A stretch of 64,000 bases of DNA from Patescibacteria group bacterium (GCA_028716045.1 JAQUQO010000001.1:384942-448941); one strand, 5' to 3'; counted from the first letter of the stretch, positions 288 to 29,595 are shown. Made by a program: numbers and translations. Notes: generated from the letters alone by a model not told the origin.

Positions 288-315
288 AAAAACTTCACAA
301 ATATAGACATCTAAT

Positions 316-345
316 CCCGAGTACTCGGGATTTTTTAACAAAATA
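316..345 (+). terminator. Intrinsic terminator of dnaB (hairpin cccgagtactcggg plus T-run); the adjacent hairpin gggggcagagaaaggtttctgccccc at 349-374 serves the minus strand
   Basis: Perfect GC stem followed by a T-run on each strand. The pair forms back-to-back terminators. Confidence 0.6.
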
Positions 346-399
346 AAGGGGGCAGAAACCTTTCTCTGCCCCCGAAAAGGTCGCGGCCGTGGCGTGGCG

Positions 400-507
400 C
401 TACTTTTCTCCGCAATTGCTCCCTCCCTCTTGCGAGGACTGAAGGAGACTTTCTTGAGAACTCTTCGTCGTGGTGTTCGCGACAGGACCTGCTGTTGAGT
501 AATTCAT
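400..507 (-). CDS. Possible 35-aa small ORF (MNYSTAGPVANTTTKSSQESLLQSSQEGGSNCGEK), not in the ORF track
   Basis: Perfect SD AAGGAGG lies 8 nt upstream of the ATG (minus strand). The ORF ends just before the minus-strand terminator at 349-374. The sequence is low-complexity with no homology I recognise. Confidence 0.25.
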   Translation of the reverse strand: MNYSTAGPVANTTTKSSQESLLQSSQEGGSNCGEK

Positions 508-663
508 TTTTCTTTACCTCCTTAATTCAGAGTTTCGCCTCTGCGCCCAAAACTACAACAGTGATTATAGAATAACACACAAACTCAAAAAAATAAAATT
601 AGATACCCACAGATTAAACTATCTCGCTGGCGACACCACTATGGTTTTTTAACCAATCCCCAA

Positions 664-752
664 TTGTCATTCTGAACGAGGTCAGCGAAGCTGACCGAAA
701 TGAAGAATCTGAATTTAGATTCTTCTCCCGAGTTCTCGGGGTCAGAATGACA
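664..752. repeat. Family-1 palindromic MITE-like element (outer inverted repeat TTGTCATTCTGA...TCAGAATGACA enclosing 3 internal hairpins)
   Basis: Outer inverted repeat ttgtcattctga/tcagaatgaca. Internal hairpins are gtcagcgaagctgac, gaatctgaatttagattc and cccgagttctcggg. The same architecture recurs at 6149-6310 and 29524-29595. Confidence 0.7.
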
Positions 753-1492
753 CTCCGCGCGGGGAGGCCCAAAAAATTCCTAAAATTAAAAGCCCTCGGA
801 TATAAATTTTCCGAGGGGCTTGATACATATTTTGCGGCCTTCTTTTGGCCGCTGGTTGTTGGGCAGTTTATGAACGGCGGTCTTACCCTGGACCCCGCGC
901 CGTTGTCGTCGGCTTATTCTCTAAAATTTGCGCTTTCGCGCATGCTCGGAGGTGCTCTCTTCATCTTTCTATCTCCTGCTTTTGGGGTTGTCGGTTAATA
1001 AACGCACACTATGTGCCGGATAAAACAAACAATCCAACCATTGTGGCATTCTTACCAATTTTGGTATTTTTACCAAATATATTGGCCGGGGTGTCAACCC
1101 GCTTTATTCTGAATGCGCTGACCAATCGATTTCTCCCGTTTTTGTTCGTATTGGTGACTTTGCCGTGTAGATGGTCGTATCCGTAAACTGGGCGATCACC
1201 TCACTCGGCGATTTTTTTTCGGCGATTTTTTCCACAAATTGGTTTCTTCCAACTTTCTGTCATTCTTTTGCTAAGTTAGCGACTACTGACATTTTACTGG
1301 CAGATTTATGCGCTGCTTAACAGGGGTGTCAACCCTACAAAGAATGCGGACCTCCTCTTACCTCCATTCTGGTTAAATCTTTACGCCAATATATAATTTT
1401 CAAACGTGGTTATATTATAACATAATGGCTAAAACCTGTCAAGAGTGTGGGGAAGGGAGATACTAATAACCGTCTAAAACCCAAGAAAAACA

Positions 1493-1830
1493 ACAAAAAA
1501 ACGAGAGTTAGTTAACTCTCGTAGGGCTCTGCTTCCCCAGGCTCATACCACATGGGATATACGCTCCCCGGCAGGCTTCCTTTTAGAAGGAAGGTGACCT
1601 CACAATGGGCCACTGACTCCTTACGTCACCATTTTATAGCAGGTGAACGCTAATTTTGTCTTTAAACTCTCCGCTAAAGAAATGGCATCTAAACCTCCTT
1701 TTCTCCTCGTAGTAGAGTTAACACTAATTTTTGCGCCGATTTACTAAATCCCATCCTACAGAAATGGCATTTTAAACCTCCTTAGCGCCTTTTTTCGTGT
1801 TAATAAATTATAAATCTCCTTAAAAGAGTT
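1493..1830 (-). ncRNA. Predicted roughly 340-nt small RNA of unknown class, carrying two SD-preceded MPFL mini-ORFs
   Basis: The minus strand carries a perfect promoter TTGACA-17-TATAAT (plus coordinates 1837-1865), then the transcript, then a 9-bp GC hairpin cgagagtta/taactctcg (1501-1522) followed by a U7 run. No protein ORF of 60 aa or more lies on this strand. There are two copies of AAGGAGGTTTArA-ATG-CCA-TTT-CTN-TAG. Confidence 0.55.
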
Positions 1831-1836
1831 GATTAT

Positions 1837-1865
1837 ATTATAGTACATTTTACTAATTTTGTCAA
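1837..1865 (-). promoter_or_regulatory. Sigma-70 promoter (TTGACA-17 nt-TATAAT) driving the minus-strand small RNA; the -35 box is contributed by a half-copy of the dispersed palindromic operator element
   Basis: Read directly from the sequence. The -35 box is plus 1860-1865 (complement) and the -10 box is plus 1837-1842 (complement). Confidence 0.6.
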
Positions 1866-1884
1866 GACCTGTCAGCCGCGACCC
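1859..1884. repeat. Partial copy of the dispersed TTGTCAAGACCCGTC...GCGAC palindromic operator/promoter element (copy 1 of 5)
   Basis: ttgtcaagacctgtcagccgcgaccc matches the left arm and centre of the 26-bp palindrome seen at 13566, 24838, 49138 and 56308. Confidence 0.6.
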
Positions 1885-1979
1885 TATTAAAAAGGCTTGA
1901 TTTAGCCAAAAGCGGGGCTATTCCAAATAATACTGAAATGTAATATAATAAATTCAATCTATAAATAATAAAACCCCAT

Positions 1980-10411: not shown

Positions 10412-10873
10412 CTACACTTCGGCCTGGCCTAATTTTTCGGCAATCTCGCCTATGGATTTTTCGGTCTTCTCTTTATATGAATTCCATTTTCCTTCGTCCC
10501 AAATTTCCAAATGGTCATAGAGGCCGGTCACTATCACTTTTTTATTAAGCCCCGCGTATTTTCTCAAATACTCCGGCAAAACGATTCTCCCCTGCTTATC
10601 AATCTCCACGTCCATGGCTCCGGAAAGGCGGAGACGGGCGTAAGCTCTGTTATTCGCCTGATTGATAGAAAGTTTGGAAATATTTTCCGCCTCTTTTTGC
10701 CACTCCTCCAAAGTATGAATAAATAAACAATCGTCTAAACCTTTGGAAATCACCGCCCCCTTAGTTAAATCTGCCCTAAACTTGATTGGGACGGCCAAAC
10801 GGCCTTTTTCGTCTATGTTATGTGAATATTCTCCGATAAACATATTTGTTGATATTTTGATGGACTTATCCAC
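10412..10873 (-). CDS. mraZ: Transcriptional regulator MraZ
   Basis: MFIGEYSHNIDEKGRLAVPIKFR with a duplicated SpoVT/AbrB-like fold, upstream of rsmH. Confidence 0.95.
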   Translation of the reverse strand: MDKSIKISTNMFIGEYSHNIDEKGRLAVPIKFRADLTKGAVISKGLDDCLFIHTLEEWQKEAENISKLSINQANNRAYARLRLSGAMDVEIDKQGRIVLPEYLRKYAGLNKKVIVTGLYDHLEIWDEGKWNSYKEKTEKSIGEIAEKLGQAEV

Positions 10874-11100
10874 AGAATTTCTATCTTATCCCCACTTTTA
10901 TCCACCTAATACCATTATACACCATTTTAAACCATTTGGCAACCATCAAATGTGGGGATAACTCCACCGAGAAAATGTGCTCCGCGCTGGGTGTTTTACG
11001 GCTTTTATCGCTTGACATTATTTTGGGCTTATGTTAAAGTGCAACGTTCCCTATATTTGGGACCTTGAAAATAAAAATATCACTACCTTGGGAGGTTTTA

Positions 11101-29523: not shown

Positions 29524-29595
29524 TTGTCATCCTGAGCGTAGCGAAGGATCTCTGTCTAGATTCTTCGCCCCGAGAACTCGGGATCAGAATGACAA
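29524..29595. repeat. Family-1 palindromic MITE-like element (short copy)
   Basis: ttgtcatcctga...gaatc-tctgtcta-gattc...cccgagaactcggg...tcagaatgacaa. Confidence 0.7.

What the first reader, a model, noticed from the sequence alone, without database searches (positions are those of the whole stretch)
1493..1830. Promoter-to-terminator transcription unit with no protein gene but two identical SD-ATG-CCA-TTT-CTN-TAG (MPFL) mini-ORFs
On the minus strand a textbook TTGACA-17-TATAAT promoter (its -35 donated by the palindromic element) is followed about 335 nt later by a 9-bp GC hairpin plus U7. Between them there is no ORF of 60 aa or more. There are two copies of a perfect Shine-Dalgarno AAGGAGG, 6-7 nt spacer, then ATG CCA TTT CTG/CTT TAG, encoding the tetrapeptide MPFL twice. 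A structured 3' region follows: GGTGAC...GTCACC, a ttccttctaaaaggaa hairpin and GC-rich helices. It does not fit tmRNA, SRP, 6S or RNase P signatures. Candidate functions are a regulatory RNA whose mini-ORFs recruit or stall ribosomes, a minigene or leader-peptide sensor of translation stress, or a precursor of a very short secreted peptide. It lies inside an unusually long 1.7-kb non-coding region for this compact genome.
Basis: seen in the sequence. Interest (0 to 1): 0.8.

Follow-up and report, generated by a model that had tools for sequence, protein, structure and literature searches.

The report
Orphan RNA with twin four-codon minigenes
A candidate-phyla-radiation bacterium carries a lineage-specific, promoter-to-terminator unit of about 337 bases with no real protein gene but two tandem, near-perfect ribosome-binding sites, each followed by the four-codon reading frame Met-Pro-Phe-Leu; the sequence features are real and very probably capture ribosomes, but no relative could be found, so its function is only inferred.

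Summary
On the minus strand there is a 12/12 TTGACA-17-TATAAT promoter (1865-1837), an intrinsic terminator (1522-1494), no ORF above 34 aa, and two copies of AAGGAGG-5/6 nt-ATG CCA TTT CTN TAG. No Rfam family, tmRNA or tRNA matches.

New facts:
- The unit lies in a 1.7-kb island between dnaB and ybaB. Relatives with YbaB identity of 67% or less have only 150-210 nt there.
- The nearest relative (71%) keeps the divergent promoter, but its contig ends there.
- The two mini-ORFs belong to an ~82-nt tandem duplication. The SD-ORF block is its best-kept part, and the only coding difference is synonymous.
- AAGGAG occurs four times in 337 nt, about 30-fold enriched.
- Both SDs are predicted to be accessible.
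- The 3' half is not unusually structured.
- The 33-codon GTG ORF has no homologue, and its start is predicted to be buried.
- The one interesting outside match (Acidobacteria) is the C-terminus of a conserved 17-codon leader peptide. Homology is unproven.

Best reading, at low confidence: a ribosome-loading minigene RNA, acting as a roadblock on its own transcript or by titrating the translation machinery. A neutral relic of acquired DNA remains a serious rival. Interest is moderate.

The parts
1837..1865 (-). Sigma-70-type promoter: TTGACA (1865-1860), 17 nt, TATAAT (1842-1837). The inferred transcription start is near 1830.
   Evidence: 12/12 match. An orthologous promoter with 12/17 identical spacer bases lies at the same distance from ybaB in L115, whose YbaB is 71% identical.
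1494..1830 (-). Inferred transcript, unit A, about 337 nt.
   Evidence: Bounded by the promoter and the terminator. No ORF above 34 aa. No Rfam hit. MFE z = -2.2.
1814..1822 (-). Degenerate third SD-like copy (TAAGGAGAT) at about +9 to +17, with no start codon after it.
   Evidence: 88% identical over 16 nt to the SD1 region (family D8). Predicted to pair with the mini-ORF 2 region.
1777..1783 (-). Shine-Dalgarno 1: AAGGAGG. In context it reads TAAGGAGGT, 9 nt complementary to the canonical 16S 3' end.
   Evidence: Mean unpaired probability 0.72.
1756..1770 (-). Mini-ORF 1: ATG CCA TTT CTG TAG (MPFL-stop).
1694..1700 (-). Shine-Dalgarno 2: AAGGAGG.
   Evidence: Mean unpaired probability 0.64.
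1674..1688 (-). Mini-ORF 2: ATG CCA TTT CTT TAG (MPFL-stop). An in-frame TAG lies immediately before the ATG, so it cannot be part of a longer ORF.
1628..1792 (-). Tandem duplication of an ~82-nt unit. Each copy holds the SD-ORF block (26 of 28 columns identical) and a second conserved block AAAATTAG(T/C)GTT(A/C)AC (1731-1717 and 1657-1643).
   Evidence: Alignment A2. Repeat families D3, D6 and D11. nhmmer finds only these two copies in the window.
1512..1622 (-). AAGGAG (1622-1617), 3 nt, then a 33-codon GTG ORF (1613-1512) that ends inside the terminator stem. Probably not translated.
   Evidence: GUG unpaired probability 0.01. No Pfam or PHROG match. The only hit among 1.84 billion proteins is a spurious repeat ORF.
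1576..1630 (-).
   Evidence: The 150-nt 3' part gives z = -0.41 against shuffles.
1494..1522 (-). Intrinsic terminator: a 9-10-bp stem (ACGAGAGTTA/TAACTCTCGT) followed by T7.
288..1979 (.). Lineage-specific 1.7-kb island between dnaB and ybaB. Unit A is its first transcription unit; units B and C follow on the same strand.
   Evidence: Relatives have dnaB-ybaB gaps of 150-210 nt.

Best explanation
Unit A is a strongly transcribed short RNA, found only in this lineage, whose working parts are ribosome-capture sites. There are two accessible, near-perfect Shine-Dalgarno/ATG modules, each opening a four-codon ORF (MPFL-stop), plus two further AAGGAG sites.

If the RNA is made, 30S/70S ribosomes should load on it efficiently. 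They would translate four codons while still tethered to the strong SD, terminate at UAG and reload.

The most likely consequence is in cis. Ribosomes parked near the 5' part would act as a roadblock that protects and stabilises the RNA, as with minigene and STAB-SD-type 5' stabilisers. A trans effect on the translation machinery (titration of 30S subunits, or peptidyl-tRNA drop-off) is the alternative output of the same mechanism.

Shown: the sequence anatomy, its non-random nature, and the lineage specificity. Inferred: transcription, ribosome loading and every downstream effect.
For: - The promoter is a perfect consensus match. This genome uses such promoters in front of ordinary-looking ORFs. 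Its orthologue is kept in the nearest relative, L115.
- The terminator is canonical.
- AAGGAGG followed by ATG at 4-9 nt occurs seven times in the window. The other five sites open ORFs of 35-226 aa, four of them 61 aa or longer.
- AAGGAG occurs four times in 337 nt, against 47 in 128 kb counting both strands.
- SD1 and SD2 are predicted to be mostly unpaired, at 0.72 and 0.64.
- Within the ~82-nt tandem duplication, the SD-spacer-ORF-stop block is the best-conserved segment (26 of 28 columns). Its only coding difference is synonymous (CTG/CTT), while the flanks have diverged.
- The same sequence appears in three independent assemblies.
- There is precedent for strong-SD mini-ORFs that stabilise or tune transcripts, and for reloading on strong-SD minigenes (PMC8708949). 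There is also precedent for 5' ribosome roadblocks against RNase J (PMC3997798).
Against: - There is no expression data of any kind.
- No homologue exists anywhere else, so selection can be judged only from two paralogous copies.
- The duplication could be recent and short, in which case the high identity of the SD-ORF block needs no selection.
- A stabiliser needs something worth stabilising. The 3' half is not significantly structured, and its 33-codon ORF looks closed and has no homologue.
- The whole island is absent from relatives with YbaB identity of 67% or less.
- Whether the genome has RNase J or Y was not checked.
Confidence: 0.35

Rival explanations
1. Neutral relic. The 1.7-kb island is recently acquired or decaying DNA, for example from a phage or another mobile element. 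Its promoters, SDs and truncated gene starts survive by chance. The twin MPFL frames are a recent local duplication of a former gene start and have no selected function.
For: - The island is absent from all relatives with YbaB identity of 67% or less.
- No homologue was found in any collection.
- The 3' half is not structured beyond chance.
- A third SD copy at the 5' end has already lost its start codon.
- REP/MITE-like palindromes lie inside the island.
Against: - The six-frame translation of the unit finds no protein remnant among 5.8 billion sequences.
- The genome is small and densely packed.
- Three consecutive units on the same strand each keep a -10 region and a terminator hairpin, and units A and B also keep a perfect -35.
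- The promoter is conserved in L115.
- Both mini-ORFs keep SD, spacing, ATG, frame and stop, while the surrounding unit has diverged.
Confidence: 0.25
2. Trans-acting RNA that needs no translation. The four AAGGAG(G) motifs would be purine-rich seeds that sponge a C-rich (CCUCC-type) small RNA, an RNA-binding protein that recognises GGA motifs (CsrA-like), or free 30S subunits.
For: - SD-like motifs are about 30-fold enriched.
- The motifs lie in predicted loops or unpaired stretches.
- G-rich sponge RNAs for C-rich sRNAs are known, for example RosA in B. subtilis (PMC8216469, listed).
- The neighbouring unit B contains a CACCTCC stretch.
Against: - A pure sponge does not need an ATG at optimal spacing, a conserved four-codon frame and a stop, yet these are exactly what the two copies share.
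- No partner was identified.
- A regular-expression search of the window and of L001 (about 72 kb in all) for three short strings recalled from the CsrA consensus found nothing. This is a crude check that covers less than a tenth of the genome.
- The two repeat units have no shared secondary structure.
Confidence: 0.2
3. Small-protein mRNA. The product would be the 33-aa peptide (GTG 1613 to 1512), with the two MPFL frames as upstream ORFs controlling it.
For: - AAGGAG lies just upstream of the GTG.
- The ORF ends in the terminator, as small genes often do.
- Unit C of the same island does carry a plausible 35-codon gene with a perfect SD.
Against: - The SD-start spacing is only 3 nt.
- The GUG has an unpaired probability of 0.01, with or without ribosomes on the mini-ORFs.
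- ORFs of the same length occur on the opposite strand here by chance.
- There is no family or homologue.
Confidence: 0.07
4. The tetrapeptide itself, (f)Met-Pro-Phe-Leu, is the product. It could act on the translating ribosome, like the short peptides encoded by rRNA-borne mini-genes that confer macrolide resistance, or as a released signal.
For: - The two copies differ only by a synonymous Leu codon.
- The gene dosage is doubled and the promoter is very strong.
- Translated mini-genes of 3-6 codons with a function in cis are known (own knowledge: Tenson, DeBlasio and Mankin 1996).
Against: - One synonymous site between two paralogues is negligible statistics.
- MPFL does not fit the published consensus for macrolide-resistance peptides (own knowledge).
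- There is no export or modification gene nearby.
- No second lineage shows peptide-level conservation of a four-codon ORF.
Confidence: 0.05

Closest known systems
Toxic or regulatory minigenes (lambda bar minigenes; synthetic 2-6-codon minigenes)
   Same: A strong SD is followed by ATG, a very few sense codons and a stop, all transcribed from a strong promoter. With a strong SD the ribosome can reinitiate without leaving the RNA (PMC8708949; the bar minigenes are from own knowledge).
   Different: - Bar minigenes have two codons and lie inside phage transcripts. Here there are two four-codon frames on a dedicated, terminated transcript in a cellular genome.
- The frames end in UAG, which is reported to be less toxic than UAA.
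- Toxicity and Pth dependence are untested.
Mini-ORFs in mRNA leaders (six-codon mini-ORF of EHEC LEE4; two-codon minigenes of LEE1 and axe-txe)
   Same: A short ORF with a strong RBS whose occupancy by ribosomes protects or tunes the same transcript (PMC8708949).
   Different: Those sit upstream of a real cistron. Unit A ends at a terminator with no credible downstream gene.
STAB-SD / 5' ribosome roadblock stabilisers of Gram-positive bacteria (cryIIIA, ermC, hbs)
   Same: An extended SD-like sequence near the 5' end that binds the 30S subunit and blocks 5'-to-3' decay (PMC3997798; PMC4113751). The 5'-proximal TAAGGAG here has no start codon, as in STAB-SD.
   Different: STAB-SD stabilises a long protein-coding mRNA, whereas here the protected RNA has no known function. 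The presence of RNase J in this genome was not tested.
Conserved 17-codon leader peptide of Pyrinomonadaceae
   Same: - It contains the same string: GGAGGTT..ATG CCA TTT CTT TAG CGGAG.
- It is about 80% identical over about 45 nt to mini-ORF copy 2.
- It ends in (M/L)-P-F-(L/F/R)-stop.
   Different: - There the string is the C-terminus of a 17-codon ORF.
- GGAGG encodes Arg-Arg, and the inner 'ATG' is CTG or TTG in some members.
- The stop abuts the SD of a conserved 78-aa gene.
- The window has no such long frame and no 78-aa homologue.
- After allowing for the pattern used to find it, the similarity is of borderline significance (roughly p = 0.01-0.04 by my estimate).
G-rich sponge RNAs (for example RosA of B. 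subtilis) and CsrB/RsmZ-type protein sponges
   Same: A stand-alone small transcript with several purine-rich, SD-like motifs (PMC8216469 is listed).
   Different: No partner sRNA or protein was identified. The motifs here are complete translation starts with a conserved frame and stop.

Membership tests
Known structured RNA families (tmRNA, SRP RNA, 6S, RNase P, riboswitches, leaders; Rfam 15) | Covariance-model match at or near the family's gathering score | tested here: not met
   cmscan of the window at gathering score finds only 4 tRNAs. cmscan of 280-2000 at E<=10 finds nothing on unit A.
tmRNA | tRNA-like domain plus tag reading frame | tested here: not met
   ARAGORN finds 4 tRNAs and no tmRNA in the window.
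Minigene (bar-type) | SD, start codon, 1 to about 5 sense codons and a stop, in an accessible context | tested here: met
   Two copies are present. SD unpaired probabilities are 0.72 and 0.64.
Minigene (bar-type) | Expression inhibits growth through peptidyl-tRNA drop-off when Pth is limiting | not testable with these tools
   Needs expression in a pth(ts) host.
Leader peptide / uORF attenuator | The short ORF lies upstream of a regulated gene on the same transcript | tested here: not met
   A terminator lies about 150 nt after mini-ORF 2. The only ORF in between is a 33-codon GTG frame with no homologue.
Leader peptide / uORF attenuator | Ribosome position on the short ORF switches an alternative structure (terminator/antiterminator, or SD-sequestering helix) | tested here: inconclusive
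   Constrained folding shows no change at the terminator or at SD3/GUG when the mini-ORFs are masked. This is prediction from a single sequence only.
STAB-SD / 5' roadblock stabiliser | Extended complementarity to the 16S 3' end close to the 5' end of the transcript | tested here: met
   TAAGGAG lies at about +9 and TAAGGAGGT at about +47. The 16S sequence of this genome is not in the window, so the canonical anti-SD is assumed.
STAB-SD / 5' roadblock stabiliser | Stabilises the downstream RNA against a 5'-to-3' exonuclease present in the organism | not tested
   No RNase J or Y search was possible on the whole genome, and there are no half-life data.
CsrB/RsmZ-type sponge | A cognate CsrA-family protein is encoded in the genome | tested here: inconclusive
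   A regular-expression search for three strings recalled from the CsrA consensus found nothing in the 64-kb window plus L001. This is a crude check, and the rest of the >=812-kb genome was not available.
Pyrinomonadaceae 17-codon leader peptide | A 17-codon ORF with a conserved start, ending in RR(F/L)x(E/D)(M/L)PFx-stop | tested here: not met
   Copy 2 has an in-frame TAG directly before its ATG. The frame of copy 1 is open upstream only to an ATG inside the promoter spacer. Compare alignment A4.
Pyrinomonadaceae 17-codon leader peptide | The stop codon abuts the SD of the conserved 78-aa gene | tested here: not met
   Copy 2 keeps TAG-CGGAG but no gene follows. tblastn of the 78-aa protein against the window finds nothing below E = 3.5.
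Chromosomal replication origin (considered because of the long gap next to dnaB) | GC-skew switch and a cluster of DnaA boxes | tested here: not met
   GC skew is negative in 31 of the 32 two-kb bins, with no switch of sign. The island contains one 1-mismatch DnaA box.

The most novel reading that the evidence does not exclude
Unit A may be a dedicated 'minigene RNA': a stand-alone, highly expressed transcript whose only job is to trap ribosomes on two reloading four-codon ORFs. By titrating 30S subunits, peptidyl-tRNA hydrolase or tRNA-Leu, it would act in trans as a global brake on translation. That could serve growth or dormancy control, or act as a weapon or defence in conflict with a phage or host, in a CPR bacterium with few conventional regulators. 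No cellular minigene RNA with such a physiological role is known to me.
Probability: 0.1. Interest if true: 0.8.

Novelty: new variant of a known kind. Interest (0 to 1): 0.45.

Why it matters
If the RNA is made and loaded with ribosomes as predicted, it would be a natural, chromosomally encoded, stand-alone minigene transcript. So far, minigenes are known as parts of phage transcripts or mRNA leaders, or as laboratory constructs. It would also be one of very few candidate regulatory RNAs in the candidate phyla radiation, whose regulation is almost unexplored. It gives a simple, testable object: a 337-nt RNA with two identical four-codon ORFs. With it one could ask whether ribosome trapping is used physiologically. 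If it is a relic instead, it still documents how a compact CPR genome carries a 1.7-kb island of strongly signalled but gene-poor DNA.

Tried and rejected
1. Known RNA families: Rfam at gathering score and at E<=10, and ARAGORN, found nothing.

2. Synteny: 80 RecR loci from GTDB species representatives and YbaB homologues were examined. The order dnaB-ybaB-recR-rplU is conserved, but the gap is 55-635 nt and unrelated. nhmmer with units A, B and C found nothing.

3. BLASTN (distant mode) of the island against phage and plasmid collections gave no match.

4. Pattern scans:
- Viral contigs gave 0 hits for three patterns.
- Metagenome contigs gave 27 single-copy hits. Of these, 23 lie inside open frames of 100 or more codons, and only L111 was interesting.

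5. Six-frame translation of 1460-1900 against 5.8 billion proteins, to catch pseudogenes or edge ORFs of relatives, gave nothing at E<=10.

6. The L111 lead was followed through the 78-aa protein family into L118-L127. The 'mini-ORF' there is the end of a 17-codon leader peptide, so it is not a four-codon minigene, and homology to the window is unproven. There is no Rfam family there either.

7. The 33-aa ORF has no Pfam or PHROG match. One spurious repeat hit came from 1.84 billion proteins.

8. Origin of replication: rejected by GC skew and DnaA-box counts.

9. A shared secondary structure for the two repeat units: none found. Further copies in the window: none.

10. uORF-to-ORF coupling by constrained folding showed no effect.

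11. Alternative genetic code: all three stop codons end long ORFs, so the standard table 11 applies.

12. The longer 30-aa frame through mini-ORF 1 (MYYN...RRFKMPFL) was rejected because its ATG lies inside the promoter spacer and has no SD.

Full report
**Source and setting**

The window is part of contig JAQTRY010000001.1 of GCA_028711565.1, a Patescibacteria (CPR) metagenome-assembled genome. The closest RecR and YbaB relatives are Candidatus Falkowbacteria-like MAGs at 72% and 74% amino-acid identity or less.

The finding lies in a 1.7-kb stretch (288-1979) between the end of dnaB (plus strand, ends at 287) and ybaB (plus strand, starts at 1980). ybaB is followed by recR and a minus-strand rplU. 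Two Logan assemblies from other sequencing runs reproduce the region at 100% identity, so the sequence is not an assembly artefact. They also provide no variation to work with.

**Check of the observation**

On the minus strand:
- The promoter is TTGACA (1865-1860), 17 nt, TATAAT (1842-1837), a 12/12 match.
- A hairpin at 1522-1501 followed by T7 is a canonical intrinsic terminator, although only 4 of its 9-10 pairs are G-C.
- Between them no ORF on either strand exceeds 34 aa.
- The two modules are AAGGAGG(1783-1777)-TTTAAA-ATG CCA TTT CTG TAG(1770-1756) and AAGGAGG(1700-1694)-TTTAG-ATG CCA TTT CTT TAG(1688-1674).
- The 26-nt motif was never seen in shuffled sequence.

The window holds only five perfect TTGACA-17-TATAAT sites, all on the minus (leading) strand. 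Two head units A and B of this island, and the three outside the island are followed by ordinary-looking ORFs. The promoter call is therefore credible.

AAGGAGG followed by ATG at 4-9 nt occurs seven times in 64 kb. The other five sites open ORFs of 35-226 aa, four of them 61 aa or longer, and the remaining two are the MPFL frames. In this genome that signal looks like a marker of translation starts.

- The 3' part is not more stable than shuffled sequence (z = -0.41). The whole unit gives z = -2.2.
- There is a 33-codon GTG ORF (1613-1512).
- A degenerate third SD copy lies at +9 of the transcript.

**Anatomy found here**

The two mini-ORFs are part of a tandem duplication of an ~82-nt unit (alignment A2).
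- The SD-spacer-ATG-ORF-stop block is identical in 26 of 28 columns. It has one indel in the spacer and one synonymous difference (CTG/CTT).
- A second block, AAAATTAG(T/C)GTT(A/C)AC, is also kept.
- The rest of the unit has diverged.

AAGGAG occurs four times in the 337-nt unit, against 47 times in 128 kb counting both strands. About 0.12 would be expected.

In the predicted ensemble both SDs are mostly single-stranded (0.72 and 0.64). The 5'-terminal 17 nt pair with the mini-ORF 2 region.

The GUG of the 33-codon ORF is paired in essentially all structures, with or without the mini-ORFs masked as ribosome-occupied. That ORF has no family and no real homologue. The two repeat units share no convincing secondary structure.

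**What it is not**

- Rfam 15 gives nothing on the unit at gathering score or at E<=10, and ARAGORN finds no tmRNA.
- It is not an origin of replication. GC skew is negative in 31 of the 32 two-kb bins with no switch of sign, and DnaA boxes do not cluster here.
- It shows no sign of being a decayed protein gene. A six-frame concatenate of 1460-1900 finds nothing among 5.8 billion proteins.
- The genome uses all three stop codons, so the standard code applies.

**Comparative evidence**

The order dnaB-ybaB-recR-rplU is conserved in relatives. The dnaB-ybaB gap is 55-210 nt in seven of the relatives examined and 635 nt in L006, where the minus strand holds an unrelated 114-codon ORF (not characterised). 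nhmmer with units A, B and C finds nothing in 80 related loci. The 1.7-kb island is therefore lineage-specific.

There is one informative exception. L115 (ENA ERZ27293400, YbaB 71% identical) keeps an orthologous divergent TTGACA-17-TATAAT promoter at the same distance from ybaB, with 12 of 17 spacer bases identical. Its 531-nt contig ends 7 nt after the -10 box. The promoter is thus older than this genome, but the transcript of the relative is unseen.

Phage and plasmid collections, IMG/VR pattern scans and a JGI metagenome pattern scan gave no homologue of the unit.

**The one outside lead**

Among the 27 metagenome hits to GGAGG-N4-9-ATGCCATTTCTNTAG, 23 lie inside open frames of 100 or more codons and look like chance.

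L111 is intergenic and matches mini-ORF copy 2 well beyond the search pattern:
- L111: ..ATGCCATTTCTTTAGCGGAGGTGCTAAAGAAAATGAGC
- Window copy 2: ..ATGCCATTTCTTTAGCGGAGAGTTTAAAGACAAAATTAGC

L111 is a Pyrinomonadaceae (Acidobacteriota) locus in which the string precedes a conserved 78-aa hypothetical gene. Homologous loci L118, L119, L120 and L127 keep it, with codon-level variation:
- codon 2 is CCA, CCT or CCG;
- the last sense codon is CTT, TTC or CGT;
- the stop is TAG, TAA or TGA.

However, alignment A4 shows that the true unit there is a 17-codon ORF. It has an invariant upstream ATG, the same length in all five loci, and the consensus M-x7-R-R-(F/L)-(F/C)-(E/D)-(M/L)-P-F-(L/F/R)-stop. GGAGG encodes Arg-Arg, and the inner 'ATG' is TTG or CTG in two members.

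The acidobacterial element is therefore a leader peptide, not a four-codon minigene. The window has neither the long frame (copy 2 has a TAG directly before its ATG) nor the 78-aa gene. After allowing for the search pattern, the residual similarity is of borderline significance by my estimate (about 0.01-0.04). I treat it as an unproven parallel, interesting in its own right.

**Mechanism**

What is shown is sequence anatomy. What follows is inference.

Given a consensus promoter, accessible consensus SDs at optimal spacing, ATG starts and a strong terminator, the simplest prediction is an abundant ~337-nt RNA on which ribosomes load at two sites, make fMet-Pro-Phe-Leu, terminate at UAG and reload. 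Published work on minigenes reports the following (PMC8708949):
- strong SDs favour reinitiation without dissociation;
- ribosome occupancy of strong-RBS mini-ORFs can protect transcripts, as with the six-codon mini-ORF of LEE4;
- very short ORFs can be toxic through peptidyl-tRNA drop-off.

5'-proximal ribosomes are known roadblocks for RNase J (PMC3997798).

I therefore favour a ribosome-loading minigene RNA (confidence 0.35). Cis stabilisation is the conservative output, and titration of the translation machinery in trans is the more novel one (0.1).

The main rival is a neutral relic of acquired DNA (0.25). It is favoured by lineage restriction, the lack of homologues and the unremarkable 3' half. 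It is disfavoured by the conserved promoter, the compact genome and the selective retention of the complete SD-ORF-stop blocks.

The other rivals are a translation-independent sponge or base-pairing RNA (0.2), a 33-aa protein mRNA (0.07) and a functional tetrapeptide (0.05). All are listed with their tests.

**Verdict**

The finding is real and not explained by any known family. It is an orphan seen in one lineage, with no expression or conservation data. Its 'structured RNA' and 'leader sensor' aspects are not supported. It is best filed as a new variant of the minigene / SD-roadblock theme. Interest is moderate (0.45). The decisive step is recovering the orthologous region behind the conserved promoter of L115.

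Noticed in passing
window 785-1442, minus strand: Unit B is a second orphan unit directly downstream of unit A.
- It has a perfect TTGACA-17-TATAAT promoter with a TG extension (1442-1414).
- It ends in a hairpin (819-811 / 800-792) with a T-rich tail.
- It is about 620 nt long, with no ORF above 43 aa on the minus strand. Two longer plus-strand ORFs overlap it antisense: 747-998 (83 aa, the one GenBank calls) and 845-1186 (113 aa).
- Its predicted fold is strong (z = -4.2).
- It contains two identical GGGTTGACACCCC hairpins (1335-1323 and 1100-1088) and a 16-codon ORF with an AGGAG SD (ATG at 964).
- It has no Rfam match.
   Followed up: partly
window 348-575, minus strand: Unit C contains a 35-codon ORF (507-400, MNYSTAGPVANTTTKSSQESLLQSSQEGGSNCGEK) with AAGGAGG-9 nt-ATG and a strong terminator (373-348). 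It is not annotated in the GenBank record and has no Pfam or PHROG match. It is probably a real small-protein gene.
   Followed up: partly
window 665-752, 310-332 and 29557-29594: A nested palindromic element (TGTCATTCTGA...TCAGAATGACA) has a CCCGAG(T/A)(A/T)CTCGGG core. The core recurs after dnaB and at 29.6 kb. It looks like a REP/MITE-like repeat or a shared terminator.
   Followed up: no
L111:490-565, L118/L119/L120/L127:1425-1500: Pyrinomonadaceae (Acidobacteriota) carry a conserved 17-codon leader ORF with the consensus M-x7-R-R-(F/L)-(F/C)-(E/D)-(M/L)-P-F-(L/F/R)-stop. Its stop codon abuts the GGAGG SD of a conserved 78-aa hypothetical protein (the P0095 family, with at least 80 cluster representatives). 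In four of the five loci the gene lies between an isochorismatase gene and uvrD/pcrA (L127 has other neighbours). No Rfam, Pfam or NCBIfam entry covers it. It is a candidate regulatory or arrest leader peptide. A distant homologue of the 78-aa protein (P0171, 59% identical), in a locus with an HNH endonuclease gene and a run of small ORFs that looks phage-like (L121), lacks the leader.
   Followed up: partly
L115:1-40 versus window 1830-1866: The nearest relative (YbaB 71% identical) keeps the divergent perfect promoter facing away from ybaB. The contig breaks 7 nt after the -10 box, so its transcript is unknown.
   Followed up: partly
window 10866-10961: A cluster of DnaA-box-like repeats (TTATCCACA, TTATCCCCA, TTATCCACC) sits just upstream of mraZ (10873-10412, minus strand). 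On the coding strand they read as GTGGATAA and GTGGGGATAA repeats. They are probably an MraZ operator rather than an origin, since GC skew shows no switch.
   Followed up: partly
window, whole: All five perfect TTGACA-17-TATAAT promoters, and 13 of the 16 AAGGAGG sites, are on the minus strand. GC skew is negative in 31 of the 32 two-kb bins, which I read as the minus strand being the leading strand. dnaB, ybaB and recR lie on the other strand.
   Followed up: no
L006:5049-5684: One relative (RecR 67% identical) has a 635-nt dnaB-ybaB gap with an unrelated 114-codon ORF on the opposite strand (not characterised). This intergenic site seems to accept insertions repeatedly.
   Followed up: no
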